Assembly: GCA_964447495.1 (NCBI GenBank)
Contig: CAYUTF010000082.1
Coordinates: 1 to 14,926 of the forward strand
From: an uncultured archaeon
GTDB lineage: Archaea > Asgardarchaeota > Lokiarchaeia > Sigyniarchaeales > SOKP01
Reading direction: 5' to 3'
DNA: 14,926 nucleotides
Below, piece by piece: positions 1 to 13,877 of this stretch (position 1 is its first letter; each line of letters opens with the position of its first letter). Below the pieces are notes generated by a model. That model saw only the letters and a list, made by a program, of their open reading frames with translations, did no database searches and was not told the DNA's origin. The position numbers and the translations under genes are program-made.

Positions 1-299
1 TTATTTTTTTGAGTTAAATTTTCAAGTTTTAAATCTAAATCTTTAACATTAATAGTATTAACGTGATAAATTCTATTCATATCTTGAGGTCTATTGAAAC
101 CTTTTTTCCCTAAAATCCAATCAGGATCTGGAAAACCTAAACGCATCTGCTTTAAGTAGTAGGATTTCATACTCTTCTTTAACTGAGTTGTTTTTCCTCT
201 CCCAGCTCTTTGCCCTGTTTTCCGATGCTGTCCGACCTTTCCATATCCAATTGTTCGGGTTCCTCTTTTCTTTTGTTTTTTACTTTTAAATTTTCTCAT
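1..299 (-). CDS. rpl15: 50S ribosomal protein uL15 (3' end outside window)
   Basis: Not in ORF track. Manual translation from ATG at 299: MRKFKSKKQKKRGTRTIGYGKVGQHRKTGQRAGRG...LGKKGFNRP...NTINVKDLD, which matches archaeal L15 motifs. SD-like AGGTGA upstream. Expected position after L30. Confidence 0.93.
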   Translation of the reverse strand, partial: MRKFKSKKQKKRGTRTIGYGKVGQHRKTGQRAGRGKTTQLKKSMKSYYLKQMRLGFPDPDWILGKKGFNRPQDMNRIYHVNTINVKDLDLKLENLTQKN

Positions 300-320
300 A
301 ATCTACGTTCACCTTTCTGT

Positions 321-857
321 TTAGAGCATTTTATGGATAAGTTCATTAATATAATTTTCAACATATCCCAGAGTTCCCCCTTCTTTGAAATGTTTTTTAA
401 TGTTTCCTAAATGACCTTTTTTAGGAGGATGTAATCTAAATACGGGTTTAATTTTGGAGATATCCTTTGATCTATATTGAACTTCTCCTTTAATTAATGC
501 TTTAGCAAGAGTTTTAATATCATTATATTTAGTTAAATTTTTAACTTGTTCATCTGTGAGTGGTTTATTCCCCTCAACTCTACCTCTAACTCGAAGGAGT
601 CTAATTAGTGTTTTCTCATCAATTTCTCCATAAGCAATATAATCTTTACATTTTTTAAGCATTCCAATATAACTTTCTTTACCCCAGATTAGAACACCAT
701 GATTTACTTTATGCATTCTGAGCATTTTAATTGTATCAAGAATTTTCCTGTTCATTCCAGGCGAACCTCTAATCCGAATTGCAAAGTATAAAACAGGAGG
801 CTTAATTTCTTTTACTTTTGATTTTTTTTTCATAATAATTTCATTTTCTGCCATCAT
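321..857 (-). CDS. rpl30: 50S ribosomal protein uL30 (long archaeal/eukaryotic L7 type)
   Basis: Motifs AIRIRG, YIAYGEID, FRLHPPKKG, GGTLGY...INELIHKML. Start more likely ATG 857 or 854 after SD-like GGTG than the GTG at 866. Confidence 0.95.
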   Translation of the reverse strand: MMAENEIIMKKKSKVKEIKPPVLYFAIRIRGSPGMNRKILDTIKMLRMHKVNHGVLIWGKESYIGMLKKCKDYIAYGEIDEKTLIRLLRVRGRVEGNKPLTDEQVKNLTKYNDIKTLAKALIKGEVQYRSKDISKIKPVFRLHPPKKGHLGNIKKHFKEGGTLGYVENYINELIHKML

Positions 858-873
858 ATACACCACTCATTTT

Positions 874-1488
874 TTATAAGTTGAAATTATATTTATGTGC
901 ATTTTTTAGAGCATTAACTGTCGCTTTAACTAAATTCTCACTAGTTCTTGTGTCTCCAAAGGTTTTACTCCAAATATCTTCTATTCCTGCTAATTTTAAT
1001 ACTTGCTTTACTTTATCCGCGCAAGCTAAGCCTACTCCTGCTGGTGCGGGAATAAGGCGAATCCTAACTGATCCACATTTACCTTCAACTTTAAACGGAA
1101 TACTATGTGTATGACCACATCCACATTCTCCACTACCACATCCTCTTAAAACTGGAATAACAGATAGTTTTGCTCTATCAATTGCTTTTCTTATGGCAGG
1201 TCCAACTTCTCGACTTTTTGCGGATCCAACTCCGATGAAACCATCTGCCCCAACAAGAACTACCGCCTTGAATTTCGATCTCTGACCGCTTGCAGTCATT
1301 TGTTGAACCATTTTTATGGTTACTACATCTTCTTTAAGTTGTGGCAAAAGTACATCAATGATTTCTTTTTCTTTAACAACTAAATTGTTAGCGAATATCT
1401 TATCTAAAGTGATTAATCCTTGTTGCACTAATTCACCAAGTTTTGTCCTTGGAACCCAAGTTTCTTCCATATTTCTACTTCGACTCAT
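874..1488 (-). CDS. rps5: 30S ribosomal protein uS5
   Basis: WVPRTKLGELV, GCGSGECGCG..HSIPFKVEGKCGSV, LIPAPAGVGL; position between L18 and L30. Confidence 0.97.
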   Translation of the reverse strand: MSRSRNMEETWVPRTKLGELVQQGLITLDKIFANNLVVKEKEIIDVLLPQLKEDVVTIKMVQQMTASGQRSKFKAVVLVGADGFIGVGSAKSREVGPAIRKAIDRAKLSVIPVLRGCGSGECGCGHTHSIPFKVEGKCGSVRIRLIPAPAGVGLACADKVKQVLKLAGIEDIWSKTFGDTRTSENLVKATVNALKNAHKYNFNL

Positions 1489-1503
1489 TTAAGCTCATCT
1501 TTT

Positions 1504-2097
1504 TTAAGCATTATTTTCAATAGTTTTTAATGTAGTTGAAAATAGTTGTCCCATTTTTAAGGGGTCTATCTTCTTCTTTTTTAAATATCCTGAGAATATT
1601 TGCTGATACTTTTCAGGATCTTCACTTTTCAAATATTTTGCATAATTCTCTATATGAGAACCATTAATTCTATCTTCAAAATTTTCTGGAAAAAATTCCT
1701 CCCGATATGGAATATCTATTCCTGCTTCTATTAATCCTTTAAATGCTGCTAAAACCCTATTGTGATGGTAAAAAATCCCTAAATCTAGTATTGCTTGCGT
1801 GATATTTTGTTTTTTAGCGCGTAATCCTGCTAGATAACCTGTTAAATATGCAGCAGGAATGTTTCCCGTGTTTGCTTTCCATCCAAAATTCTTAATTAAT
1901 TCTCTAGAAAAGGCAGAAACCAATATTTTATCTCCACCTGATTTTGATTCAATTAATTGAATAATAATATGGTTATTTGAAGCCCTAATAACGGCTCTTA
2001 TAGATTTTGATTTTAAAAGCTTTAACCTTCGATGATAATTTGTTTTTCCTTCGACTCTTCTTCGTAATGGTCTTCTATATCGTGGTCCTTTCGCCAT
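1504..2097 (-). CDS. rpl18: 50S ribosomal protein uL18
   Basis: MAKGPRYRRPLRRRVEGKTNYHRRLKLL, NIPAAYLTGYLAG, ILDLG. Confidence 0.97.
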   Translation of the reverse strand: MAKGPRYRRPLRRRVEGKTNYHRRLKLLKSKSIRAVIRASNNHIIIQLIESKSGGDKILVSAFSRELIKNFGWKANTGNIPAAYLTGYLAGLRAKKQNITQAILDLGIFYHHNRVLAAFKGLIEAGIDIPYREEFFPENFEDRINGSHIENYAKYLKSEDPEKYQQIFSGYLKKKKIDPLKMGQLFSTTLKTIENNA

Positions 2098-2099
2098 TT

Positions 2100-2555
2100 C
2101 TATCTTCCTCTTTTTAATAGTTCTTTTTCTTTTATATATCTATTCAATTGAGAGACACTATTGAACATTCCACCCTTTACGTTTTTATACAATTTTCTGT
2201 AATTTGCTACGGATATTTGTTTTCGATCTCTGAGCTTCTTTAATTCACGTCTTTGTGCACGAACTCTCCTCATCCATGCTTTTTTCTTAGGAGTTCTTGC
2301 TGTTTTTTTCCCTTTTCTTTTACCTAAACCTCTGGCAAGACCTCTTTTCTTTCTTTGATGACGTAAATTCTTCCTAAATTTTGATATGCCTTTCTTATAG
2401 TTTTTCTTAATTATCCCGTCTTTTACTAAACTACGAATATCTTCACGAGTAATCGCCATTTTTATTTCCTCTATTAAATATGGATCGAAAAAAACTCTAT
2501 TTTCTCCACATTTTAATATTTCGGCTGCCATCCTTCTCTGTGCTTTTAAACTCAT
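2100..2555 (-). CDS. rpl19e: 50S ribosomal protein eL19
   Basis: LKAQRRMAAEILKCGENRVFFDP, AITREDIR, GKRKGKKTAR, WMRRVRAQR. Confidence 0.97.
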   Translation of the reverse strand: MSLKAQRRMAAEILKCGENRVFFDPYLIEEIKMAITREDIRSLVKDGIIKKNYKKGISKFRKNLRHQRKKRGLARGLGKRKGKKTARTPKKKAWMRRVRAQRRELKKLRDRKQISVANYRKLYKNVKGGMFNSVSQLNRYIKEKELLKRGR

Positions 2556-2575
2556 TTTTAACCACTAAATCTTAA

Positions 2576-3067
2576 TTAATCATCTAAATCAAGAGAATCT
2601 TCTAAATCATCTGCATCTATGTATTCATCTTCTTCCAAATCTTCTAATGGTGATTTAATCATAGATTCAAGACTCTCTATTTCTTTTTGTGATATACCTA
2701 TATTAAGTATTTTAAATCCTCTATTTTGAGCATAATCAACTAAAAATATTCTTTTTCTTGTACCTAAATTACCAGAAATTTTAATTGCATGCTTTTTATT
2801 ATTCAATCCTTTAAGTTCATTTATTGAAGATACCCACACTTCTTCATATCCAGACGGGTGTAACCCTCTGACCTTTTTTGGGCTTCTATACCCTACAGTG
2901 GGAGATTTCACGCCAGATTTTTCCTTCATTCTTGTCTGGGAATCGATCCCTCTTGCCTTCCGCCAAGGATCCTTTACTCTTTTATATCTCCAAGATTCAA
3001 CTCGTCTAAATGCAGGCTTCTTCTTTTTCTTATTTTTTCTTATTTCCATTAATCTTTTCTGTTCCAT
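2576..3067 (-). CDS. rpl32e: 50S ribosomal protein eL32 with acidic C-terminal tail
   Basis: KPAFRRVESWRYKRV, WRKARGIDS, VGYRSPKKVRGLHPSGY. Confidence 0.96.
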   Translation of the reverse strand: MEQKRLMEIRKNKKKKKPAFRRVESWRYKRVKDPWRKARGIDSQTRMKEKSGVKSPTVGYRSPKKVRGLHPSGYEEVWVSSINELKGLNNKKHAIKISGNLGTRKRIFLVDYAQNRGFKILNIGISQKEIESLESMIKSPLEDLEEDEYIDADDLEDSLDLDD

Positions 3068-3084
3068 CGATGTTAAACCTCACT

Positions 3085-3663
3085 TTATTTTATTTGCCAA
3101 AGAATTTGATCTCCAGTTTGTATCCTATATAGGTAAATTCCATCTTGAAATACTCGCGGATCTTTTTTTCTAATTCTACAACATCTTTTAAGATTGGCAG
3201 CAGTTTGGCCCAACTCTTCTTTATCAGGACCAGTTAAAATTACATCGTCGCTTTCTATTTTTACTTCTACATTTTCTAAATAATTGGTGATCCTTGGAGC
3301 TCTCTCTCCTAAAAAGTTGACTACATGAAGTTCTTTCTTTTCAGGCTTGATTTCAACATTACATGGAAAGTGAGAATAACAAACTTTGCAGAAATAATGA
3401 TAGTTAGTCTGTACTCCAATTATTAAATTTTTTATGATATTTAAAATTGTATTTGCTAAAGCTAATGTTCCGCTTTTTGGAAAACTTGTTGAAATAATAA
3501 TTTTTTTATCTTTTAATGCTATAGAAATTCCCCTAGCATGAGAAAAGTCTTTTGTAATACTCCCATTTGGACCCTTAACAGTGACATGGTGATTTTCTGT
3601 TAAAATGACCACAACTCCTTCCGGAACGTCTAATTCTTCTTTAAAAAATGCTATTTTTACCAT
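3085..3663 (-). CDS. rpl6: 50S ribosomal protein uL6
   Basis: VTVKGPNG, YSHFP, NFLGERAPR, GQTAANL, KDPRVFQDGIY. Confidence 0.97.
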   Translation of the reverse strand: MVKIAFFKEELDVPEGVVVILTENHHVTVKGPNGSITKDFSHARGISIALKDKKIIISTSFPKSGTLALANTILNIIKNLIIGVQTNYHYFCKVCYSHFPCNVEIKPEKKELHVVNFLGERAPRITNYLENVEVKIESDDVILTGPDKEELGQTAANLKRCCRIRKKDPRVFQDGIYLYRIQTGDQILWQIK

Positions 3664-3684
3664 TTTATTCTACCATTGTAATTA

Positions 3685-4068
3685 TTAATATACATAACAT
3701 AAGGTTTGGCCACCAATATTCCTCTCTTCTGCTTCGTTCATAGACATAACCCCTTGATTAGTGGACATAATTATAATACCTAAACCTGGAGCAGGCAACA
3801 ATTTCCTTTCAAGAGCTTCAAATTGAGAGACGTAGTAACTATTTCTAATTAACCCTTTTGCTTCATTTATTTTTCCTAGAAGAGCAATTTTGAATTTACC
3901 TTGCCTTCCATCATCATATCTTTCAAATTCACCAACATATGCATTACTTTGTAGTATTCGCAGAACTCTCTGAAGTAAATTTGAGGCGGGGCTTATTATT
4001 ACCTCTTTCTTTCTTGCCATCTCAGCATTCTTCAACATATTCATGCTATCAGCAATTGTATTAGCCAT
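3685..4068 (-). CDS. rps8: 30S ribosomal protein uS8
   Basis: YVGEFERYDDGRQGKFKIALLGKIN, LPAPGLGIIIMSTNQGVMS, GGQTLCYVY. Confidence 0.96.
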   Translation of the reverse strand: MANTIADSMNMLKNAEMARKKEVIISPASNLLQRVLRILQSNAYVGEFERYDDGRQGKFKIALLGKINEAKGLIRNSYYVSQFEALERKLLPAPGLGIIIMSTNQGVMSMNEAEERNIGGQTLCYVY

Positions 4069-4153
4069 TTTTTATTATTCCTCTAACAAATTTTATTCTA
4101 CTTTTAATTCAATTCCTAATTTTTTATCGTAAGATTTTGAATATTTAATCTAA

Positions 4154-4303
4154 TTAATCAAACCTATGAAAGCCTATGTCTTTACCAATTTCATAAAAAC
4201 ATCTTCGACAGATATATAGCCCATATCTTCTAATAATACCTCTATGAGTTCCACACCTTCTGCAGACTCTCTGTCCTTTTCCTAAGTTTTTTCCTTGTGG
4301 CAT
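4154..4303 (-). CDS. rps14: 30S ribosomal protein uS14 (zinc-binding type), 49 aa
   Basis: Not in ORF track. Manual translation [49 protein letters not shown], with two CxxC pairs; canonical position between L5 and S8. Confidence 0.96.
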
Positions 4304-4321
4304 AATTTTCAACTTTTTTAA

Positions 4322-4915
4322 TTAAATGTAATCTAACTCTATTTTTTCTACAATATCAACTCCAAAATTCTTCCTGAGAAAATACTGAGCTTCATCACGA
4401 GATACATAATGATGCAATGGGACTTTAGTTTTTTTTATTCTACGATATCTTACTCTCATCCCTGGTCTTGTGATTCTTCCTACAACATTAAGTCCCCAGA
4501 TTCCAATCTCAGTTTCATAATCAATTCCTGGAATGGTTATATGTTCCGTTATTCCGAAACCAAAATTTCCAAAATTATCAAAACTTTTTCTTAAAATTTT
4601 GTTATTAGTCACAATCAGCAGCCTTTTCAATAATTTCTCTGCTTCTGCGCCTCTCACAGTTACCATAGTTCCAATTGGTCTACCTTTACGTAAATTAAAC
4701 TCTTTCACGTTTTTCTTAGAGAGGGTTTTGACTGGAGATTTACCTGATATGGTTTGTAATACCGTAAAAGCTCTTTCTAATTCTTCTCCTCCAGACCCAA
4801 CGCCAATATTTAAAACTATTTTCTCTAAATAAGGCTTCTTCATAGGATTTTTCCATATTTCAATATATTCTTTCTCTTGTAGCTTTAAAGCCTTTTTTTT
4901 AGCCTTAGTAGACAT
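4322..4915 (-). CDS. rpl5: 50S ribosomal protein uL5
   Basis: NPMKKPYLEKIVLNIGVG, FNLRKGRPIGTMVTVRG, SFDNFGNFGFGITEHI. Confidence 0.97.
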   Translation of the reverse strand: MSTKAKKKALKLQEKEYIEIWKNPMKKPYLEKIVLNIGVGSGGEELERAFTVLQTISGKSPVKTLSKKNVKEFNLRKGRPIGTMVTVRGAEAEKLLKRLLIVTNNKILRKSFDNFGNFGFGITEHITIPGIDYETEIGIWGLNVVGRITRPGMRVRYRRIKKTKVPLHHYVSRDEAQYFLRKNFGVDIVEKIELDYI

Positions 4916-4942
4916 TTCATCTTCACGTTTTATGTTATTTTA

Positions 4943-5695
4943 TTAATCTATATTGGGAATACTTATTTCGAACTGATCCTCTCCTATTATGAAAGTATAA
5001 TCATATAATGTCTCTGTGAGTTCAGAATTACGTTGTATAGAGACGGTACTAGCTTTAGGACCAAATCGTTTTAATACTTTTGTTATCTTTCCAACTTGTC
5101 CGATATTTTTACCAGACATAATAATTGCTAAATTTCCTTCCTTAAATCTCAAAGTTTTTAGAATTTCTTGCTCTGGAATGCTAATCTTTAAAACATCCAT
5201 ACGTTTATAGATATCTTCTTTAGGATTTTTTGGATCTTTAATATTTATTAATAAATTTCTACCATCATGTAAATTTAATTGAATATGCCCCCCCTTTATC
5301 GTCGTTTTTCCTGCAATTCTACATAATTTAAAATTACTCTCTTCTTCTGAAATCTTGTGTAGGATTAATCCATAGTGAGAATCTGGTAATATTCGATAAA
5401 ATTGATTTATATTTGATACACTAAGAACGTCCATTAATCCAACAGGGAATGCTGTATCTTTAATTACTTTTCCATCAACTTTGAAATATCCCTGACCGAT
5501 GAGCTTTTTTGCTTCTCGATGTGTATCGACTATTTTTAATAAATCTCTTACGATATGTAGTAAAGGTAAGCAGAATCGATTGGGATGTGGTCCTGGAGAT
5601 GGTTTAATAAAAAATGTTCCATGTTTCCTTTTAATTTGCAAGAACTTAGGGGTATTTAACCTTTTAAGAGATTTTGTTCCACCATGTCTCGTCAT
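4943..5695 (-). CDS. rps4e: 30S ribosomal protein eS4
   Basis: LKRLNTP, KPSPGPH, VDGKV..D..FPVGLMDV, GGHIQLNLHDGRN. Confidence 0.97.
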   Translation of the reverse strand: MTRHGGTKSLKRLNTPKFLQIKRKHGTFFIKPSPGPHPNRFCLPLLHIVRDLLKIVDTHREAKKLIGQGYFKVDGKVIKDTAFPVGLMDVLSVSNINQFYRILPDSHYGLILHKISEEESNFKLCRIAGKTTIKGGHIQLNLHDGRNLLINIKDPKNPKEDIYKRMDVLKISIPEQEILKTLRFKEGNLAIIMSGKNIGQVGKITKVLKRFGPKASTVSIQRNSELTETLYDYTFIIGEDQFEISIPNID

Positions 5696-6127
5696 TTATT
5701 TTTCAGCCTCTTCTTTTTGTTTTTTAGGACCCGTTAATAAATCTTCTTTAACTCCAAATAACGCTTTTCTTTCTATCAGACTTGCTCTCCATGGATCCAT
5801 CTTTTTTTCTTTTATAAATTTTGTGATAATAAGATTCGATATATGAATTGAGGGATTAAATTCAGTCCCATCTGATTTTTCAAATTTTGCCTCTTTGATT
5901 CTTGCTCTCTGATTTTTTGTGATTTCGATAACTTCTCCCTCAAAATCTTTGAATTCCCCTTTGATGATTCGCACATCATCACCTACCCTAAGTGGTAGAT
6001 TTTTTATTCCGTATTCTTCACGGACGAAATCAGCTACTCTTGTTGATAATAAATTTGATCTTTGATGATTTTTGTAATTAAACAATGCTTTTCTTTGCTT
6101 TCTTGGTTTTTTTGATTCAACTCTCAT
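5696..6127 (-). CDS. rpl24: 50S ribosomal protein uL24
   Basis: SKKPRKQRKALFN, LPLRVGDDVRIIKGEFK (KOW), IHISNLIITK. Confidence 0.96.
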   Translation of the reverse strand: MRVESKKPRKQRKALFNYKNHQRSNLLSTRVADFVREEYGIKNLPLRVGDDVRIIKGEFKDFEGEVIEITKNQRARIKEAKFEKSDGTEFNPSIHISNLIITKFIKEKKMDPWRASLIERKALFGVKEDLLTGPKKQKEEAEK

Positions 6128-6151
6128 ATTTCATTTCCTCTCTATTTATTT

Positions 6152-6577
6152 TTAAATTATTAATGATGATATTGAAGCTAACCTTGGAAATAGTTCAGCA
6201 GCTTCCCTACAAATAGGACCCCTTATTTCGGTACCTTTAGGTTCCCCTTCTTTGGTGATTAAAACACCAGCATTATCTTCAAAACACAAACGTGTTCCAT
6301 CAACACGTCTGTAGATCATTTTTTGTCTTACAATAACTGCTTTCATAATGGTACCGCGTAATTCAGGCTTGCCTTTTTTAACAGTGACAGAACAAACAGA
6401 ACCCACTGTAGCTTTTGGCAACCTATTTAAGCGCGTCTTAGAATGATCTACGTTAATAATTTCTGCGATTTTTGCTCCAGAATTATCAGTTATGAAAATT
6501 CTTGACCCATTTTGTAATCCATAACTAGTTCTTCCCGTGGCAAGGGTCTTTCGACCCAATTTTCTTCTTGTTCCCAT
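6152..6577 (-). CDS. rpl14: 50S ribosomal protein uL14
   Basis: DNSGAK, VTVKKGKPELR, FEDNAGV, KGTEIRGPICREAAE. Confidence 0.97.
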   Translation of the reverse strand: MGTRRKLGRKTLATGRTSYGLQNGSRIFITDNSGAKIAEIINVDHSKTRLNRLPKATVGSVCSVTVKKGKPELRGTIMKAVIVRQKMIYRRVDGTRLCFEDNAGVLITKEGEPKGTEIRGPICREAAELFPRLASISSLII

Positions 6578-6928
6578 TTAAATCGCACCGCTTACTATTT
6601 TTTCTAACACTATGAAAGCTTTAGTCTTGGAAAGTTTTCTACTTTCCCCTACTCTTACCAAATCTCCAACATAGATCTCATTTTTTAAACATTCAGGTAA
6701 ATGACATGAAAGGCGAGAATTCCTTCTCTCATATCGCTGGTATTTTCTAATAAATTGAACATAATCCTGTCTGATTACAACAGTATTTTTTGACTTTTTA
6801 CTTACCACTAAACCTTGAGTTATTTTGCCTCTTATTCTTGTAGATCCATGGAAAGGACAATCCTTATCATTACATTCTCTACTCTTAGGAGGACTTACTC
6901 CTGGAATACCAATATTACGAACACTCAT
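6578..6928 (-). CDS. rps17: 30S ribosomal protein uS17
   Basis: RNIGIPGV.PP, CNDKDCPFHG, KYQRYERR, GESRKLSKTKAF. Confidence 0.97.
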   Translation of the reverse strand: MSVRNIGIPGVSPPKSRECNDKDCPFHGSTRIRGKITQGLVVSKKSKNTVVIRQDYVQFIRKYQRYERRNSRLSCHLPECLKNEIYVGDLVRVGESRKLSKTKAFIVLEKIVSGAI

Positions 6929-6929
6929 T

Positions 6930-7223
6930 TTATTTCTTCAACCACTTTTTCTTTTTCAAACTTCTTAATCTATTTTCAGGTCGACCTACTATTTTTGACC
7001 CATCAAATTCTAATATATATTTATTAAGTTTAAGCCGAAAGATATATTCATTTTTAATATATTTTTTAATTTGATTTTCTTTCTGAATAACAACTAAATT
7101 TCTTGTTTCATCTATGATAGTACCTTCTAGTAAAAATTCTGTATCTTTAGGTTTTGATTTGTGTTTTAATAATACTTCAAACCCAATTAAATCATGATAA
7201 ATTAAATATTCTGGACTAATCAT
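6930..7223 (-). CDS. rnp1: Ribonuclease P protein component 1 (Rpp29/Pop4)
   Basis: HDLIG, GTIIDETRN, DGSKIVGRPENRL; canonical position between L29 and S17; ATGA overlap with the L29 stop. Confidence 0.93.
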   Translation of the reverse strand: MISPEYLIYHDLIGFEVLLKHKSKPKDTEFLLEGTIIDETRNLVVIQKENQIKKYIKNEYIFRLKLNKYILEFDGSKIVGRPENRLRSLKKKKWLKK

Positions 7224-7420
7224 CGCTTCTCCTCATTCTTTACTGTTAAAATTCGAGCTATTTGCTTTCTTAGTAATTTTGCTTTAGCAGGATTATCTGA
7301 AAGTCCGCCACCAGTTTGTTGACTATATAACATCATTAACTCTTCTCTTAATGTTATTAATGTTCTTTCTCTTTCTCTCTCATCCATTTCTCTAATTTTT
7401 TTTGCGGTAATTACATCCAT
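7220..7420 (-). CDS. rpl29: 50S ribosomal protein uL29
   Basis: AKKIREM...LREEL...NPAKAKLLRKQIARILTVKNE. Confidence 0.95.
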   Translation of the reverse strand: MDVITAKKIREMDERERERTLITLREELMMLYSQQTGGGLSDNPAKAKLLRKQIARILTVKNEEKR

Positions 7421-7442
7421 ATCATATCTCCCCTATTCATAT

Positions 7443-8216
7443 CTATTTTTCGATCTTTTCATTTTCTGGTTCTAATGATATTTCAGAGATATCTTCCTCA
7501 TCAACTTCATCAAGTATTTGTTTAGCTTCTTCAGTTATTTCTCGTTCTTCTTCCTCAATGATGTATTCTGCTCTGGTTTTTGCAGATTTCGCTTCAGCTT
7601 GAGCTTGAGCTTGGGATAATAACTCATAATTTATTTTAACCTCATCTCCCATTTTTACATCTGCATGCATAATTTTCACAATTATTCCTAATGTTCCACT
7701 TTTCTGAATACATTGAGCAATGCCTTTATCTACGCCTTCTTGTGCTGGTTGTCCACTCTTTGACATCGTGCCTGCTCTAAAAATCTGGGTTCTGGCTCTC
7801 TGTGATGTGACTTTTCCAGATATGATAATCTCGACACCTTTAGCACCCGCATCCATCACTTTTCTTAAAATGTAATATCCTGCCCTTCTGTAATGACGAC
7901 CGCGGTCTAATGAATACGCTAATCTTTCAGCCATAATCTGGGCATCTAAATCTGGATTAGCAACCTCTTCTACTTCTATTTGAGGAAGCTCTAAACCATA
8001 TCTTTCCTGTAGGATGTCAGTAATTTCTTGAATCCTTTTTCCCCCCTTTCCTATCACAAGTCCTGGACGACTTGTCTTTAAAGTAATCCTCACTCCAAGT
8101 GGGGTTTTTTGGATATCAACACCCGCAAATCCGGCTCTGACTAACTCTGAACGTAAGTATTCATTAATTTGCATTAGTTTTATACCTTGTTCGATAAAAT
8201 GTTTGGCTAGTGGCAT
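7443..8216 (-). CDS. rps3: 30S ribosomal protein uS3 with acidic C-terminal extension
   Basis: KH domain RPGLVIGKGGKRI, NPDLDAQIMAE, AGAKGVEIIISGK, GIIVKIM. Confidence 0.97.
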   Translation of the reverse strand: MPLAKHFIEQGIKLMQINEYLRSELVRAGFAGVDIQKTPLGVRITLKTSRPGLVIGKGGKRIQEITDILQERYGLELPQIEVEEVANPDLDAQIMAERLAYSLDRGRHYRRAGYYILRKVMDAGAKGVEIIISGKVTSQRARTQIFRAGTMSKSGQPAQEGVDKGIAQCIQKSGTLGIIVKIMHADVKMGDEVKINYELLSQAQAQAEAKSAKTRAEYIIEEEEREITEEAKQILDEVDEEDISEISLEPENEKIEK

Positions 8217-8270
8217 TTATTTCAACCTAATTTATGAATTTTTTAATTATACTATTTTATATTGATTAAT

Positions 8271-8750
8271 TTAACTTGGAACTTCATATATAACAATTTC
8301 AACATGACTTAAATGTCGGTATTTTGCTGAGGATCTTCCATGAGCGCGTTGAATATATCTTTTGATAATTCTTCCCCGATGAGTGGCGGCATGAATGATT
8401 CTACAGAGTTCAATATCTAATCCCTTATATTCTGCATTCGACTCTACCGCAGATAGCACCTCAAAAATACGAGCTGCAGCTTTTTGCGGATAACGTCCTG
8501 CATACCATTTAAATTGTTTTAAATCTTTTTTATGAGCTTGTTTTTTCTTGTGTCGTCTGTAGGGTACTGATTGGTTCATTTGAATAACTTTTTCTAAATA
8601 AGTTTTAGCTTGTTCTACTTTCATACCCTTAATTACCGCACAAATTTCTCGACAATCTTTTGGTTTAATTCTTAAATCCCTTCCTGATGCTTTCGCTATT
8701 CTATCAGCATCATATTTTTGCTCAATAAACGAATATCCCCAGTTTGGCAT
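8271..8750 (-). CDS. rpl22: 50S ribosomal protein uL22
   Basis: AKASGRDLRI, EICAVIKGM, GRYPQKAA, NAEYKGLD, RAHGRSS, HVEIV. Confidence 0.97.
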   Translation of the reverse strand: MPNWGYSFIEQKYDADRIAKASGRDLRIKPKDCREICAVIKGMKVEQAKTYLEKVIQMNQSVPYRRHKKKQAHKKDLKQFKWYAGRYPQKAAARIFEVLSAVESNAEYKGLDIELCRIIHAATHRGRIIKRYIQRAHGRSSAKYRHLSHVEIVIYEVPS

Positions 8751-8785
8751 TTATCATCATCTTGTTTTTATAATTATAATATTGA

Positions 8786-9340
8786 TTATTTTAATGGAAC
8801 ATATTTACTACTTCTTGTTGCTCCAATACCAGGAGAACCATGTTGTACACGTTTGCGTGTTAAAGAAAATTCACCTAAATAATGCCCAATCATCTCAGGC
8901 ATAATTTCTACTATCTCAAAACTTCTTCCGTTGTAAACTCCAATTTTTAATCCCACCATCTCCGGAAAGATAATCATATCTCTCACATGAGTTCGTGTGA
9001 GAAGATCTTTACCTCTTTTTTTTGCTCTGTAAGCCCGTCTTAACCTCTCGAGTAATTTCTTCTGTCTAGGTGGTAAACCTCTTCTTAAAGAACGTCGTGC
9101 TCTTGCTGGAAGTAATTGAATAAACTCATCCATATTCATCTTCTTTAAATCTTCTAATGTGAAACCCCGAAAATGGAATTTTAAGCGATCCCTTTCTTTA
9201 TCAAGATCGATTTCGTCTTCGATTTCCTCTTCTTCCTCTTCTTCAATTTCTTCCTCGATCTCTTTTTCTATCTCTTCGGTAGGTTCTTCAGATTCAGGTT
9301 TTTCTTGTTCATCCTCATTAGGTTCTTCATTCGGAGACAT
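8786..9340 (-). CDS. rps19: 30S ribosomal protein uS19 with ~45-aa acidic N-terminal extension
   Basis: [69 protein letters not shown]. Confidence 0.97.
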
Positions 9341-11232: not shown

Positions 11233-11493
11233 AATTTTTGCATCAAATCTTACTCTAAAATCATTTTATTTTCTATAAACTAATTATGGATCATTTCACT
11301 TAAAATCAATTAATTCTAATTTATGACAATAAATAATGACGAAAAATGATTTAAGCTTCTTTTTAAATTTAATAGTCTCTTTACTTAATTAAAAAGCAAA
11401 TGGTTTTAATTCAATCCTATTTTAACAAAAAATATTACATAAATTCCATTTATTTAAAATAAATCTATAAAAAATGTAAAAGAGGTAAGTACT

Positions 11494-11879
11494 TTGGCAA
11501 AAGATAAAATTATCGGACTCATCGTCATGATTCTCGGCATCTTTATCGCTATTGTTTACACCATGGGCAGTGTTTTGGATCTTTTCTTCGAAACACTTGG
11601 TGGAAACGCCAATTGGGATCAACTTCTCATGATTTTCGGTCATGATTGGCTTGATTGGAGACTTTTTGTGGTTCTACCCTTATGGTTAATTGTAATTTTA
11701 ATTTCCATTATCGCCATTTGGATTGGATACAGCATGCTTACAACGTTCAAGCATTTCGCTGAACCTAAGCTATACGCCTGCTCCAGTCCCACTCGAAGTT
11801 AAAAGATGTGTTTCACATTTTTATCGATTAGTTGGAAGAGGAGCTTGCTGCTGAAGAGGAATCTGAAGAATCAAGTTAA
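11494..11879 (+). CDS. Small two-TM membrane protein with acidic tail; predicted spliced CDS join(11494..11741,11773..11798,11830..11879), 107 aa
   Basis: TTG start with SD-like GAGGT at about 11482-11486. Two hydrophobic helices. Removing two 31-nt BHB inserts gives ...WIGYSMLTTPAPVPLEELEEELAAEEESEESS*, followed directly by a T-tract. The unspliced ORF stops at 11802 with an implausible tail. Confidence 0.85.
11742..11772 (+). other. Putative BHB intron 1 (31 nt) in protein-coding gene
   Basis: Central helix GCUU(11736-39)/AAGC(11767-70); bulges AC^A(11740-42) and UA^U(11771-73); internal hairpin GUUC-A-AGC...GCU-GAAC; ligation gives CTT AC|T ACG CCT (L-T-T-P). Confidence 0.78.
11799..11829 (+). 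other. Putative BHB intron 2 (31 nt) in protein-coding gene
   Basis: Central helix UCGA(11793-96)/UCGA(11824-27); bulges AG^U(11797-99) and UU^A(11828-30); internal stem UAAAA-G-AUGUG/CACAUUUUUA; outer stem UCCCAC/GUUGGA with one mismatch; ligation gives CTC GAA G|AG TTG GAA (L-E-E-L-E). Confidence 0.83.
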
Positions 11880-11888
11880 ATAAAATAC

Positions 11889-11905
11889 TTTTTTTTTTTC
11901 TTTTT
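11889..11905 (+). terminator. Oligo-T archaeal terminator
   Basis: T11-C-T5 run starting 10 nt after the spliced-frame stop at 11879. Confidence 0.6.
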
Positions 11906-11975
11906 AAACTCACTTTTTAATTTTTAATTAGATGTAAACCATTTCATAGAATTTGATATCGTATCTAATCAGATA

Positions 11976-12716
11976 TTAACCTATGTTATAAGATTTTACT
12001 CTGAGTGTATTTAGGTCAATGTTAAGTAATATTTTATTAGTAAGTTCTTTGGAATTAAGCTTTAATGGGGTGGTGCTAACAAAAATTGTGTCTTTATCTT
12101 TTTGTATGAATAGGGTATGGTGCCTTCCGTTAAAGTTAGTATTATGATACGTTATAACATTGCATTCCTGTGCGTTGAATAGAAAAGCATTTGCCCCGGC
12201 ACCTAATTCTAATACTTGAAATATTTCTTTCAAGGCGTTTTGTAAATTAAATCCTTCTTTTAGTTTATCTATAATATAGCATAGATATTTCCTTGTATCT
12301 AAATTAGTTTCCTTGCGTATTTTTTCTAAATCAGGGTAGCTTAATTTGGGGAAAGAAGGGTTCTTAATTATTCCATTATGAACGATTAAATATTTTTCGC
12401 CAATATTTATTGGATGAACATTTTCAAGACTTCTTTTCCAAGGCATAGTTTTTCTCGCATGAACAACTAGGAATCGTGTTTTAATTTCTGCTAATGATTT
12501 CCAATCTGCTTTATAAATTGGATGAATATCGCGTTTTATAATAAGATGATTATTAGAATCTTCAGGGATGTAAGCAAAACCCCAGCCTAAACTATGATGA
12601 CCAAACAGATTATATTTTCGAAGGTATTGCCAATGACAGGTTGCGATAAACTTTTTTAAAATTGGGAAGTCAACTTGAGAAGATTCATTCGAGCATTGAA
12701 GAAACATTCTACACAT
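11976..12716 (-). CDS. Stand-alone class II glutamine amidotransferase (Ntn hydrolase, YafJ/EgtC-like)
   Basis: N-terminal M-C-R nucleophile, H..GWGFAY, HARK, NVHP, HNG, downstream DT motif. Confidence 0.85.
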   Translation of the reverse strand: MCRMFLQCSNESSQVDFPILKKFIATCHWQYLRKYNLFGHHSLGWGFAYIPEDSNNHLIIKRDIHPIYKADWKSLAEIKTRFLVVHARKTMPWKRSLENVHPINIGEKYLIVHNGIIKNPSFPKLSYPDLEKIRKETNLDTRKYLCYIIDKLKEGFNLQNALKEIFQVLELGAGANAFLFNAQECNVITYHNTNFNGRHHTLFIQKDKDTIFVSTTPLKLNSKELTNKILLNIDLNTLRVKSYNIG

Positions 12717-12758: not shown

Positions 12759-13877
12759 TTAAGAATCCTCTATAAAGTAGGCGATAATTGATCCATCCTC
12801 ATGACTTATTATTAACAATTGAGTTTTTGGCTCATATATAATATCATTTATAGAAGAAGTATGAACAATATTTGACTTTATTGTGCCATTTTTTTCATCT
12901 ATGATAATCAACTCCCCTTGAGTTGTTCCAATAGCTATATTGTTTTGTTTTCCCGTTTGAAATCGATAAATAACTTCAATATTCTTATTATTTAATTCCC
13001 ACTCAATTTCTATATTTTTATTGATGCAAATTAATTTTGATGTAAAATTTATATCTTGAATGGGAATAGACTGGTCCATATAATCAAAGGAGTAAGTACT
13101 TATTAAGATATTTTCATTTATAAGTGTAGGAAAGGAGAGACTCTTCCAGACATAATCATCAAATTCCATAGTTTTAATTTCGTTATGAGATACTTTATCA
13201 ATAAAATGCAGTTGATTATCATCGCCACCACAAACGATTAATAGACCTTTATTCGAATTAATATAGTCAATAAAACGAACCTTATCTGAAAATTGTTTAA
13301 ACCATAGCAAGTTTCCATTCACATTTTCGAATATTCTAATGGTTCCATCATTTCCACAAGCGATTATCTCTTTTGTACTTTTAACACGTTTATCTGTCCA
13401 AATTTTTGCATCTTCAATGCCATCTTTGAAAATTTGACCCCAGATTAAATTTCCAGAGTTATTATCCAAAACTCTAAGAGTTTTGTCAAGAGAGTAAGCA
13501 ATAATTTCCAGATTATCATCATTATTTATATCATTAATTCTTATTCCACTTATAGAAGAACCAAATTGATGAGCCCATAAAGGCTTTAAAATTAATTCAG
13601 GAGTGATTTGAAATACTCTTAATAATCCATCTAATCCACCAAGAATTAACTCTTGCTTCCCATTCTTATTGATATCTGAAATTTCAAAATTCCAAATTGG
13701 TGAATATTCAGTGATTTGTTCTTCAATTACTAATTTACTATTTAAATCTAAGATTAAAATTTTCCCCGATTTTGTAGATATAAATAGTTTTTTAGTTTGC
13801 TCTTTTGCACAAGCACTCAATTTTGCTCTGAGAATTGACTCCTTATAATCGAAAGTCCATTTTTTTTTCAACTGCAT
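12759..13877 (-). CDS. Beta-propeller protein (WD40/PQQ-like blades with FG-GAP-like loops)
   Basis: Repeated ~45-aa blades: DINKNGKQELILGGLDGLLRVF, DINNDDNLEIIAYSLDKTLRVLD..GNLIW, ACGNDGTIRIF..GNLLW, GGDDNQLHFID. Confidence 0.8.
   Translation of the reverse strand: MQLKKKWTFDYKESILRAKLSACAKEQTKKLFISTKSGKILILDLNSKLVIEEQITEYSPIWNFEISDINKNGKQELILGGLDGLLRVFQITPELILKPLWAHQFGSSISGIRINDINNDDNLEIIAYSLDKTLRVLDNNSGNLIWGQIFKDGIEDAKIWTDKRVKSTKEIIACGNDGTIRIFENVNGNLLWFKQFSDKVRFIDYINSNKGLLIVCGGDDNQLHFIDKVSHNEIKTMEFDDYVWKSLSFPTLINENILISTYSFDYMDQSIPIQDINFTSKLICINKNIEIEWELNNKNIEVIYRFQTGKQNNIAIGTTQGELIIIDEKNGTIKSNIVHTSSINDIIYEPKTQLLIISHEDGSIIAYFIEDS

What the first reader, a model, noticed from the sequence alone, without database searches (positions are those of the whole stretch)
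11494..11879. Archaeal protein-coding gene split by two tandem 31-nt bulge-helix-bulge introns
Seen: after WIGYSML the ORF drifts into an unlikely tail and stops at 11802, while two further frames carry TPAPVPLE and ELEEELAAEEESEESS*, the latter ending right at a T-tract terminator. The two intervening segments are each hairpins closed by a 4-bp helix with a 3-nt bulge on each strand. Established: archaeal tRNA splicing endonuclease (EndA) cuts BHB motifs after the second nucleotide of each bulge and RtcB ligates; the well-known archaeal mRNA case is the single cbf5 intron of some Crenarchaeota. Applying that cut rule without adjustment removes exactly 31 nt twice and yields a 107-aa ORF (exons 248, 26 and 50 nt). 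Inference: this is EndA/RtcB-type mRNA splicing of a multi-intron gene in a probable Asgard archaeon. I know of no description for this gene family but cannot search the literature. Annotation pipelines would call a truncated ORF or pseudogene.
Basis: partly seen in the sequence, partly recalled or inferred. Interest (0 to 1): 0.96.

Follow-up and report, generated by a model that had tools for sequence, protein, structure and literature searches.

The report
Two tiny introns in Asgard gene
A small, highly conserved membrane-protein gene of an Asgard archaeon is interrupted by two 31-base inserts that have the shape of tRNA-type (bulge-helix-bulge) introns and must be cut out of the RNA to give the protein that intron-free relatives encode, which would be only the third kind of spliced archaeal messenger RNA and the first with two introns.

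Summary

- **Inserts.** Window 11494-11879 holds a gene whose reading frame is broken by two 31-nt inserts (11742-11772 and 11799-11829).
- **Orthologues.** Of 161 loci classified, 138 are insert-free. They read ...WIGYSMLTTPAPVPLEELEEELAAEEE..., the product predicted by the canonical BHB cutting rule.
- **Other carriers.** Twenty loci carry insert 1 (31 or 32 nt) and five carry insert 2 (30 or 31 nt).
- **BHB geometry.** All 19 distinct copies show a fully paired 4-bp central helix, two 3-nt bulges and an inner hairpin. Compensatory changes support the helices.
- **Selection.** Downstream exons of insert-bearing alleles evolve almost only synonymously in the spliced frame (605 synonymous, 27 non-synonymous codon differences).
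- **Enzymes.** The genome encodes two EndA paralogues and RtcB.
- **Evolution.** Presence is patchy on the gene tree, implying repeated gain or loss.
- **Spread.** Scans found no further copies of this intron family outside this gene.
- **Literature.** Nine searches found no Asgard mRNA BHB intron. A 2023 review names only cbf5 and HVO_1309.

Verdict: a new member of a known kind, of high interest.

The parts
11482..11486 (+). GAGGT, a Shine-Dalgarno-like motif 7 nt upstream of the TTG start
   Evidence: Read directly from the sequence. Its function is inferred.
11494..11741 (+). Exon 1 (248 nt): TTG start, two predicted membrane segments, ends ...WIGYSML + AC (the first two bases of a Thr codon)
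   Evidence: It has 422 homologues at E<=0.001. Exon 1 alone matches 204 of 400 genomes of the phylum and 40 of 41 genomes of the genus.
11742..11772 (+). Intron 1 (31 nt)
   Evidence: Absent from 138 of 161 classified loci. Present as 31 nt in 16 loci (window included) and as 32 nt in 4. BHB geometry is met and covariation supports it.
11736..11773 (+). BHB motif of intron 1. Central helix 11736-11739 with 11767-11770; bulges 11740-11742 and 11771-11773; inner hairpin 11743-11766.
   Evidence: 4 of 4 central pairs in all 15 distinct copies; central helix 100% of cells paired, with a change on both sides at its second pair (C-G to U-A) in the 32-nt class. One search also shows the fourth pair as U-A in the window against G-C in that class.
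11773..11798 (+). Exon 2 (26 nt): completes the Thr codon, then TPAPVPLE + G
   Evidence: Purifying selection acts in the spliced frame.
11799..11829 (+). Intron 2 (31 nt)
   Evidence: Five loci carry an insert at this same bond, in 4 distinct sequences: the window, L054 and L089 (identical to each other; 31 nt), L020 and L047 (30 nt).
11793..11830 (+). BHB motif of intron 2. Central helix 11793-11796 with 11824-11827; bulges 11797-11799 and 11828-11830; inner hairpin 11800-11823.
   Evidence: 4 of 4 central pairs, 6 of the first 8 ungapped inner pairs, 5 of the first 8 outer pairs.
11830..11879 (+). Exon 3 (50 nt): AG completes a Glu codon, then LEEELAAEEESEESS and the TAA stop (11877-11879)
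11889..11905 (+). T-rich tract after the stop codon, a probable archaeal transcription terminator
   Evidence: Read directly from the sequence. Its function is inferred from general knowledge of archaeal oligo-T terminators (recalled).

Best explanation
The gene at 11494-11879 encodes a 107-aa small membrane protein that is conserved across Asgard archaea. Its nearly invariant C-terminal tail (TTPAPVPLEELEEELAAEEE...) can only be made after two 31-nt bulge-helix-bulge introns are removed from the transcript.

Proposed mechanism:
1. In the pre-mRNA, four exon bases just upstream of each 5' splice site pair with four intron bases just upstream of the 3' splice site.
2. The rest of the intron folds into a hairpin, and the exon sequences on either side form a weak outer helix.
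3. This presents two 3-nt bulges four base pairs apart, the substrate of the archaeal splicing endonuclease. Here that enzyme is a two-subunit EndA of the broad-specificity type.
4. EndA cuts after the second nucleotide of each bulge.
5. RtcB joins the exons.

Shown here: the geometry, its conservation and covariation, the exact match of the predicted product to intron-free orthologues, selection on the downstream exons in the spliced frame, and the presence of the enzymes' genes.

Inferred: that cleavage and ligation actually occur, and that EndA and RtcB are the enzymes.
For: 1. **Orthologues.** The intron-free orthologues fetched and aligned read ...WIGYSMLTTPAPVPLEELEEELAAE.... At DNA level 138 of 161 loci classified lack both inserts exactly at the predicted junctions.
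2. **Junction.** For intron 2 of the window, moving both cuts by one base either way gives Glu-Val-Leu or a stop. Only the BHB-rule cut gives Glu-Glu-Leu. The second Glu codon is assembled from G (exon 2) and AG (exon 3).
3. **Geometry.** All 19 distinct insert copies (15 of intron 1, 4 of intron 2) have 4 of 4 central pairs, 3-nt bulges and an inner hairpin.
4. **Covariation, intron 1.** 90.3% of 227 cells are paired, against 18-48% when partners are slid by 1-3 columns. Six pairs change on both sides. None of 500 shuffles reaches the observed pairing or covariation score. In the 32-nt class the exon Leu codon differs (central strand GUUG instead of GCUU), and the intron strand is CAAC or CGAU instead of AAGC/AAGU.
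5. **Selection.** In 15 distinct alleles bearing intron 1, 18 of 22 variable downstream sites are third codon positions of the spliced frame. Pairwise codon differences are 605 synonymous and 27 non-synonymous in that frame, against 27/605 and 18/618 in the two other frames, one of which is what is read if the insert stays. Within one clade of 7 intron-bearing alleles the count is 66 synonymous and 0 non-synonymous.
6. **Insert lengths.** Lengths of 30, 31 and 32 nt would each need a different recoding event, but splicing handles all alike.
7. **Enzymes.** Two EndA-family ORFs of 201 and 205 aa, both with PF01974 and PF02778, and one RtcB at 561 bits. PMC5829648 (passages read) states that Asgard archaea have the (alpha-beta)2 EndA with the L1 loop linked to broad substrate range.
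Against: - No RNA evidence of any kind.
- Folding energies are not unusual against shuffles: z = -1.25, -2.27 and -0.93.
- The outer helix is weak. It has 3 of the first 6 ungapped pairs in the window's intron 1 and 1 of 6 in the 32-nt class, so the motifs are relaxed rather than strict hBHBh'.
- Neither insert holds a stop in the frame that enters it once intron 1 is taken as removed, so translation through them is not excluded by stops alone.
- The 30-nt form of intron 2 keeps the frame, so splicing is not demanded by the frame there.
- No other gene of the genome shows such an insert: 1290 hits against 1234 for a mirrored control, and covariance-model hits only in this gene. This would therefore be an isolated substrate.
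Confidence: 0.86

Rival explanations
1. The inserts stay in the mRNA, and the ribosome recodes: a programmed frameshift, or translational bypassing (hopping) over the insert as in phage T4 gene 60.
For: Neither insert holds a stop in the frame that enters it. In the window's intron 1 an ACG codon lies at the start of the insert and another just after it, so a take-off and landing pair is formally possible there.
Against: - The Glu codon across intron 2 is split G|AG, which hopping cannot assemble.
- Most intron 1 copies have no Thr-type codon in front of the resuming ACG; in L045 the triplet there is TAA.
- Lengths of 30, 31 and 32 nt would need no shift, +1 and +2/-1 respectively.
- Variation inside the inserts follows base-pairing, not codon position.
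Confidence: 0.03
2. The inserts are never removed. Insert-bearing alleles make a truncated protein with a junk tail, or are decaying pseudogenes.
For: Gene callers list such truncated or frameshifted ORFs: all 34 database proteins aligned diverge right after YSMLT. The 30-nt form would simply add 10 residues.
Against: - Downstream exons, which would then be unread, keep the invariant tail with 605 synonymous against 27 non-synonymous codon differences, and 66 against 0 inside one intron-bearing clade.
- The stop codon and T-tract follow the spliced frame.
- The tail is invariant from T83 to E100 in all 23 intron-free proteins aligned, so it is unlikely to be dispensable.
Confidence: 0.05
3. 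The inserts are excised from RNA, but by something other than EndA and RtcB, such as another structure-specific endonuclease and ligase.
For: The enzymes were not tested. The outer helix is weak.
Against: The geometry is exactly that of the EndA substrate, in all 19 copies: 4-bp helix, two 3-nt bulges, and cuts after the second bulge nucleotide that give the right product. Both enzyme genes are present. The inserts are far too small for group I or II ribozymes, and no Rfam family matches.
Confidence: 0.05
4. The inserts are assembly or sequencing artefacts.
For: The window comes from a metagenome-type assembly of 223 contigs.
Against: - Related but non-identical inserts at the same two bonds occur in 20 and 5 loci from many separate records.
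- They show structured, compensatory variation.
Confidence: 0.01

Closest known systems
cbf5 pre-mRNA intron of Crenarchaeota (Desulfurococcales and Sulfolobales). Sources: PMC2738675 (abstract seen in the listing); review PMC10485636 (passages read).
   Same: It is a protein-coding gene interrupted by a relaxed BHB intron. The host has a two-subunit (alpha-beta)2 endonuclease. The intron is present or absent among related species, that is, gained and lost.
   Different: cbf5 has a single intron in a different gene and a different phylum. Here there are two introns in one gene, each only 30-32 nt, near the 3' end, in Asgard archaea. cbf5 itself is uninterrupted in this genome: a 349-aa open frame.
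HVO_1309 mRNA of Haloferax volcanii. Sources: PMC7714728 (abstract seen in the listing); described in PMC10485636 (passages read).
   Same: It is an mRNA cut by the archaeal splicing endonuclease at a BHB motif and found spliced in RNA-seq.
   Different: It is a euryarchaeon with a homodimeric enzyme, and one site. I did not read where in that mRNA the intron lies.
Archaeal tRNA BHB introns, including the intron-rich tRNA genes of some Asgard lineages. Sources: PMC11291895 (passages); bioRxiv 10.64898/2026.10.13.758758 (passages).
   Same: Same motif, same cutting rule, same enzymes. The Asgard tRNA study also reports repeated, lineage-specific gains at sites able to form the motif.
   Different: The host RNA here is a messenger. 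Removal restores a reading frame rather than a tRNA fold. The passages found in that preprint do not mention mRNA (0 occurrences of the word).
Unconventional XBP1/HAC1 mRNA splicing in eukaryotes. Recalled; the abstract of PMC5435141 in the listing mentions the short XBP1 intron.
   Same: A very short non-spliceosomal intron whose removal shifts the frame and changes the C-terminal part of the protein. In animals the exons are joined by RtcB.
   Different: The endonuclease there is IRE1, acting on two stem-loops rather than a BHB motif, and splicing is stress-regulated. Nothing here shows regulation.
Translational bypassing in phage T4 gene 60 (recalled)
   Same: A short untranslated gap inside a coding sequence, with a hairpin.
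   Different: It needs matched take-off and landing codons, which are not met here. The split Glu codon across intron 2 cannot be made by hopping.

Membership tests
Archaeal bulge-helix-bulge intron (EndA / RtcB pathway) | Two 3-nt bulges on opposite strands separated by a 4-bp helix | tested here: met
   19 of 19 distinct copies have 4 of 4 central pairs with 3-nt bulges; the central helix of intron 1 has 100% of cells paired.
Archaeal bulge-helix-bulge intron (EndA / RtcB pathway) | Flanking helices on both sides (h and h' of the strict hBHBh' form) | tested here: inconclusive
   The inner helix is present in all copies. The outer helix is weak: 1 to 5 of the first 6 ungapped pairs. It fits a relaxed motif of the kind that needs a broad-specificity enzyme.
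Archaeal bulge-helix-bulge intron (EndA / RtcB pathway) | Cutting after the second nucleotide of each bulge yields a functional product | tested here: met
   The predicted 107-aa product ends like the intron-free orthologues. The placement is unique for intron 2 of the window.
Archaeal bulge-helix-bulge intron (EndA / RtcB pathway) | Structure kept by compensatory change | tested here: met
   6 of 16 pairs change on both sides; 0 of 500 shuffles reach the observed score; slid controls pair at 18-48%. Intron 2 has only 4 distinct copies, so it was judged copy by copy.
Archaeal bulge-helix-bulge intron (EndA / RtcB pathway) | Host encodes the splicing endonuclease and RtcB ligase | tested here: met
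   (two EndA paralogues of 201 and 205 aa). (RtcB, 561 bits).
Archaeal bulge-helix-bulge intron (EndA / RtcB pathway) | Spliced RNA, excised (often circular) intron, or cleavage in vitro | not testable with these tools
Programmed translational bypass (T4 gene 60 type) | Matched take-off and landing codons flanking the gap | tested here: not met
   Possible only for the window's intron 1. Absent in L045 and other copies, and impossible for intron 2, where the Glu codon is split G|AG.
Group I or group II self-splicing intron | A ribozyme core of some hundreds of nucleotides | tested here: not met
   The inserts are 30-32 nt. No Rfam family matches in 11300-12000 except one chance hit at E 0.76.
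PIG-P / DPM2 small membrane subunits (for the encoded protein) | Score over the Pfam gathering threshold | tested here: not met
   The best PIG-P score printed is 21 bits against a cut-off of 39.3. 10 of 24 members match at E<=0.01, best 2.5e-5. No PDB relative. It is a lead only.

The most novel reading that the evidence does not exclude
Mini BHB introns are being inserted again and again, site-specifically, into a messenger RNA gene of Lokiarchaeia-like Asgard archaea. The route could be, for example, reversal of the EndA/RtcB reaction on the mRNA followed by copying back into DNA, or recombination between alleles.

What prompts this reading:
- Intron 2 sits at the very same bond in four lineages.
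- Each of those lineages has an intron-free sister allele.
- The hairpins of two of the four are unrelated in sequence to the others.
- Intron 1 and intron 2 share one hairpin architecture: 6 bp, a bulge, 2-3 bp and a 5-nt loop RYWUC.

A further layer could be an XBP1-like switch, in which splicing decides whether the invariant acidic tail is made.
Probability: 0.15. Interest if true: 0.92.

Novelty: new member of a known kind. Interest (0 to 1): 0.8.

Why it matters
- **Rarity.** According to a 2023 review (PMC10485636, passages read), only two archaeal messengers were known to be spliced by the tRNA-splicing endonuclease, and 'more remain to be discovered'. This would add a third.
- **Firsts.** It would be the first such case in Asgard archaea, the closest known archaeal relatives of eukaryotes, and the first gene with two such introns.
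- **A natural experiment.** Intron-bearing and intron-free alleles sit side by side among close relatives: 7 of the 41 genomes of the genus in which the gene was found (window included) carry an intron. This offers a way to study how protein-gene introns are gained and lost.
- **Annotation.** Gene callers currently report dozens of truncated or frameshifted versions of this protein (34 aligned). Its invariant C-terminal tail is therefore missed in those genomes.

Tried and rejected
**RNA evidence.**
- The look-up of sequencing runs listed 24 runs. Five are on record as RNA and hold small shares of the stretch (0.06-0.21).
Its cap is 1, so nothing was laid.
- The listed shares are no evidence of expression or of habitat.

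**Thermodynamics.** Fold z-scores are unremarkable, so they are not used as support.

**Search for further introns.**
- tRNA introns: ARAGORN called 11 introns among 52 tRNAs in the genome. The calls look noisy, none resembles the two inserts, and I did not pursue them.
- Family-specific descriptor scan: 20 hits against 11 with a mirrored descriptor. Apart from the two known sites, none has clear ORF-joining support.
- Loose generic BHB scan: 92,829 hits against 92,103 in the reversed genome.
- Generic BHB scan requiring 60 or more open codons on both sides: 1290 against 1234 mirrored; 58 against 55 and 18 against 16 at stricter settings. There is no excess. This scan could not have found the present case, whose 3' exons are short.
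- Covariance model R1 (13 sequences, 44 positions, includes some exon columns): it matches only its own two sites in the genome. In 42 genomes of the genus it gives only 8 sites, all at the places where this gene had matched. Only 150 of about 1,100-2,300 first-look candidates were scored per genome. The 32-nt form was missed.

**Function of the protein.** Pfam gives only sub-threshold PIG-P, DPM2 and DPM3 hits. A PDB profile search gave nothing. The protein atlas gave only unnamed Asgard clusters, one with DPM2 on 11% of members. No structure was predicted.

**Trees and alignments.**
- The first tree was built without alignment and misplaced alleles that carry a codon indel. It was replaced by the aligned, careful tree.
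- The exon 1 synonymous/non-synonymous figure printed is invalid for the same indel reason and is not used.
- Alignment A4 misaligned intron 2 and was dropped in favour of A6.

**Literature.** Nine searches found no paper on BHB introns in Asgard protein-coding genes. Supplements were closed and not seen. Subscription journals are largely outside the library.
Full report
**1. The observation**

- An ORF starts at TTG 11494, behind a GAGGT motif. It encodes a small hydrophobic protein up to ...WIGYSML, then drifts into an unconserved tail and stops at 11800-11802.
- The two other frames carry TPAPVPLE and ELEEELAAEEESEESS. The latter stops at 11877-11879, ten bases before a run of eleven T.
- Taking out 11742-11772 and 11799-11829 (31 nt each) joins the three pieces into a 107-codon frame with exons of 248, 26 and 50 nt.

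**2. The decisive comparison**

- A protein search with the unspliced ORF found 422 relatives at E<=0.001. Where a source names them they are from Promethearchaeota (Asgard) assemblies: Loki-, Thor-, Hod- and Hermodarchaeota labels.
- The sequences fall into two kinds.
- Proteins of 103-112 aa read straight through ...WIGYSMLTTPAPVPLEELEEELAAEEE....
  - The others diverge right after YSMLT into tails that are frame-shifted readings of the same downstream DNA.
- I fetched DNA for 80 loci from species-representative genomes (116 relatives found, best 80 kept). I fetched 80 more from metagenome contigs. That second query was an alignment of insert-bearing ORFs, so the sample leans towards insert-bearers.
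- Classification of 161 loci including the window:

| Class | Loci |
|---|---|
| No insert (two of these with a variant LEEAEL-type motif) | 138 |
| Insert 1 of 31 nt, alone | 13 |
| Insert 1 of 32 nt | 4 |
| Both inserts, 31 + 31 nt (window, L054, L089) | 3 |
| Insert 2 alone, 30 nt (L020, L047) | 2 |
| No recognisable motif (L068) | 1 |

- In the window's own genus the gene was found in 40 of the 41 other genomes. Six of those 40 carry an insert, as does the window. The window's closest alleles do not.

**3. Geometry**

- The canonical archaeal substrate reads 5' to 3' as follows: outer helix, 4-nt central strand, 3-nt bulge, inner helix and loop, 4-nt central strand, 3-nt bulge, outer helix. 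Cuts fall after the second nucleotide of each bulge. This is established knowledge for tRNA introns at position 37/38 (recalled).
- Both inserts fit without adjustment.
  - Intron 1: GCUU / ACA / 24-nt hairpin / AAGC / UAU.
  - Intron 2: UCGA / AGU / 24-nt hairpin / UCGA / UUA.
- All 19 distinct copies found (15 of intron 1, 4 of intron 2) have four of four central pairs, 3-nt bulges and an inner hairpin.
- The outer helix, made of coding sequence, is weak: 1-5 of the first 6 ungapped pairs. The motifs are therefore of the relaxed kind.
- For intron 2 of the window the cut placement is fixed independently of the motif. The second Glu codon has to be assembled from G of exon 2 and AG of exon 3, and shifting both cuts by one base gives Val or a stop.
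- For intron 1, protein conservation allows the BHB placement or one base to the right.

**4. Covariation**

- I tested an alignment of the 15 distinct intron 1 copies against the structure I named.
- 90.3% of 227 cells form standard pairs, against 18-48% with the 3' partners slid by 1-3 columns.
- Six of 16 pairs show changes on both sides.
- None of 500 column shuffles reaches the observed pairing or covariation score. The tool warns that relatedness inflates this comparison.
- The clearest case is the central helix. In the 32-nt class the exon's Leu codon differs, so the exon strand is GUUG instead of GCUU, and the intron strand is CAAC or CGAU instead of AAGC or AAGU.
- A synonymous exon site upstream (AGC/AGT) also covaries with a synonymous site downstream (ACG/ACA): the pair 14-58 is C-G in 8 copies, U-A in 3, A-U in 1, U-G in 1 and unpaired in 2.
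- Folding energy by itself is unremarkable: z = -1.25, -2.27 and -0.93.

**5. The downstream exons are read in the spliced frame**

- Among 15 distinct intron-1-bearing alleles, 18 of 22 variable sites in the 60 nt after the intron are third codon positions of the spliced frame.
- Pairwise codon differences are 605 synonymous and 27 non-synonymous in that frame. In the two other frames, one of which is read if the insert stays, they are 27/605 and 18/618.
- Inside one well-supported clade of seven intron-bearing alleles the count is 66 synonymous and 0 non-synonymous, while the intron itself differs at 11% of sites.
- Insert-bearing alleles are therefore not decaying, and the insert must be got rid of before or during decoding.

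**6. Rivals**

- **Frameshifting or hopping.**
  - Inserts of 30, 31 and 32 nt need different events.
  - The split Glu codon cannot be made by a hopping ribosome.
  - Most intron 1 copies lack a matching landing codon.
  - Variation inside the inserts follows pairing, not codon position.
- **Artefact.** This is excluded by the many independent, non-identical copies.
- **Group I or II introns.** These are excluded by size, and Rfam has nothing there.
- **A different endonuclease.** This cannot be excluded but has no support.

**7. Enzymes**

- The genome is 98.4% complete by the tool's figure. It encodes two EndA-family proteins of 201 and 205 aa, each with the N-terminal and catalytic Pfam domains.
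- It encodes one RtcB.
- By eye the 201-aa protein keeps a His in the position where I recall the catalytic His of EndA, and the 205-aa one does not. That would fit an alpha and a beta subunit. This is my reading from memory, not a test.
- PMC5829648 (passages read) reports that Asgard archaea have the (alpha-beta)2 enzyme with the L1 loop associated with broad substrate range.

**8. Evolution**

- I built a careful maximum-likelihood tree of the exon sequences: 159 rows, 306 columns, introns left out.
- Intron 1 needs at least 9 changes of state; starred branches alone force at least 5 for the intron-1-only label.
- Intron 2 needs 4 changes.
- The window's allele lies in an 11-row clade (support 99/91) whose other ten members are intron-free.
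- L020 and L047 each pair with an intron-free allele (100/100 and 100/98).
- The tree is short, unrooted and open to recombination, so it shows patchiness, not direction.
- The four intron 2 copies sit at the same bond. The hairpins of L020 and L047 are unrelated in sequence to those of the window and L054.
- The window and L054 intron 2 copies share with intron 1 one architecture: 6 bp, a bulge, 2-3 bp and a 5-nt loop RYWUC. This hints at a common origin of introns 1 and 2, and perhaps at repeated insertion.

**9. Is it a wider phenomenon?**

I found no sign of that.
- A descriptor for this hairpin family gives 20 hits in the genome against 11 for a mirrored control, and only the two known sites join ORFs convincingly.
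- A generic BHB scan with 60 or more open codons on both sides gives 1290 against 1234 mirrored, and no excess at stricter settings.
- A covariance model of the 31-nt introns finds only its own sites in the genome and in 42 genomes of the genus.
- cbf5, the classic spliced archaeal gene, is uninterrupted here.
- All these scans have limited sensitivity, as set out under Tried and rejected.

**10. The protein**

- It has no Pfam family. PIG-P scores below threshold in 10 of 24 members (best E 2.5e-5), with still weaker DPM2 and DPM3 hits.
- No PDB relative was found.
- The tail T83-E100 is invariant in 23 intron-free proteins.
- Neighbours in the window are a PfkB kinase, a class-II amidotransferase-like protein, a beta-propeller protein and a cupin-type isomerase-like protein. 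None has an evident link.

**11. What is known**

- The review PMC10485636 (passages) names cbf5 and HVO_1309 as the archaeal messengers spliced this way and expects more.
- Work on Asgard introns that I could find concerns tRNA genes: PMC11291895 and bioRxiv 10.64898/2026.10.13.758758 (no occurrence of 'mRNA').
- Nine searches found no description of BHB introns in Asgard protein genes. The library lacks most subscription journals, and supplements were closed.

**12. Verdict**

Only the RNA-level demonstration is missing.
- I file it as a new member of a known kind, with three unusual traits: two introns in one gene, very small size, and polymorphism among close relatives.
- Confidence that the inserts are BHB introns removed by the EndA/RtcB pathway: 0.86.
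- Interest: 0.8.

Noticed in passing
window 11773-11876 (the tail of the protein), and P0006 and the other intron-free homologues: The C-terminal 18 residues, TTPAPVPLEELEEELAAE, are invariant in 23 intron-free proteins from several Asgard classes, while the membrane part varies. A proline-rich stretch followed by an acidic leucine-spaced helix looks like a docking motif. From memory it recalls MIT-domain-interacting motifs of ESCRT-III-type proteins. This was not tested.
   Followed up: no
L020:956-1029: In the 30-nt intron 2 of L020, the last 9 intron bases before the final bulge base repeat the 9 exon bases before the 5' splice site (CCACTCGAA). This is longer than the 4 bases the central helix needs. 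It could be a trace of how the insert arose, such as a local duplication, or it could be chance.
   Followed up: no
L065 (also L096, L098): The contig of L065 carries this Asgard-specific gene with a 32-nt intron 1, yet its record title names a bacterial family (Nanopelagicaceae). The contig is probably mis-binned.
   Followed up: no
L020 and L047 (intron 2 of 30 nt): These two inserts keep the reading frame. Unspliced RNA would give a protein with 10 extra residues inside the invariant tail, and spliced RNA the normal one. This is a natural test of whether splicing is needed or complete.
   Followed up: no
G000 contig C15: 12064-13371 (RtcB) and 28557-28898 (TruB_N / cbf5-like): RtcB and the cbf5-like pseudouridine synthase gene lie about 15 kb apart on the same contig. 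The cbf5-like gene is one uninterrupted 349-aa frame.
   Followed up: partly
window 3-9340, minus strand: There is a long run of about 20 tightly packed small ORFs (97-257 aa), all on the minus strand. It looks like one large operon. I did not identify them.
   Followed up: no
window 12759-13877, minus strand: A 372-aa beta-propeller / WD40-like protein has many weak hits to eukaryote-named propeller families. This may be of interest as an Asgard 'eukaryotic signature'-type protein.
   Followed up: no
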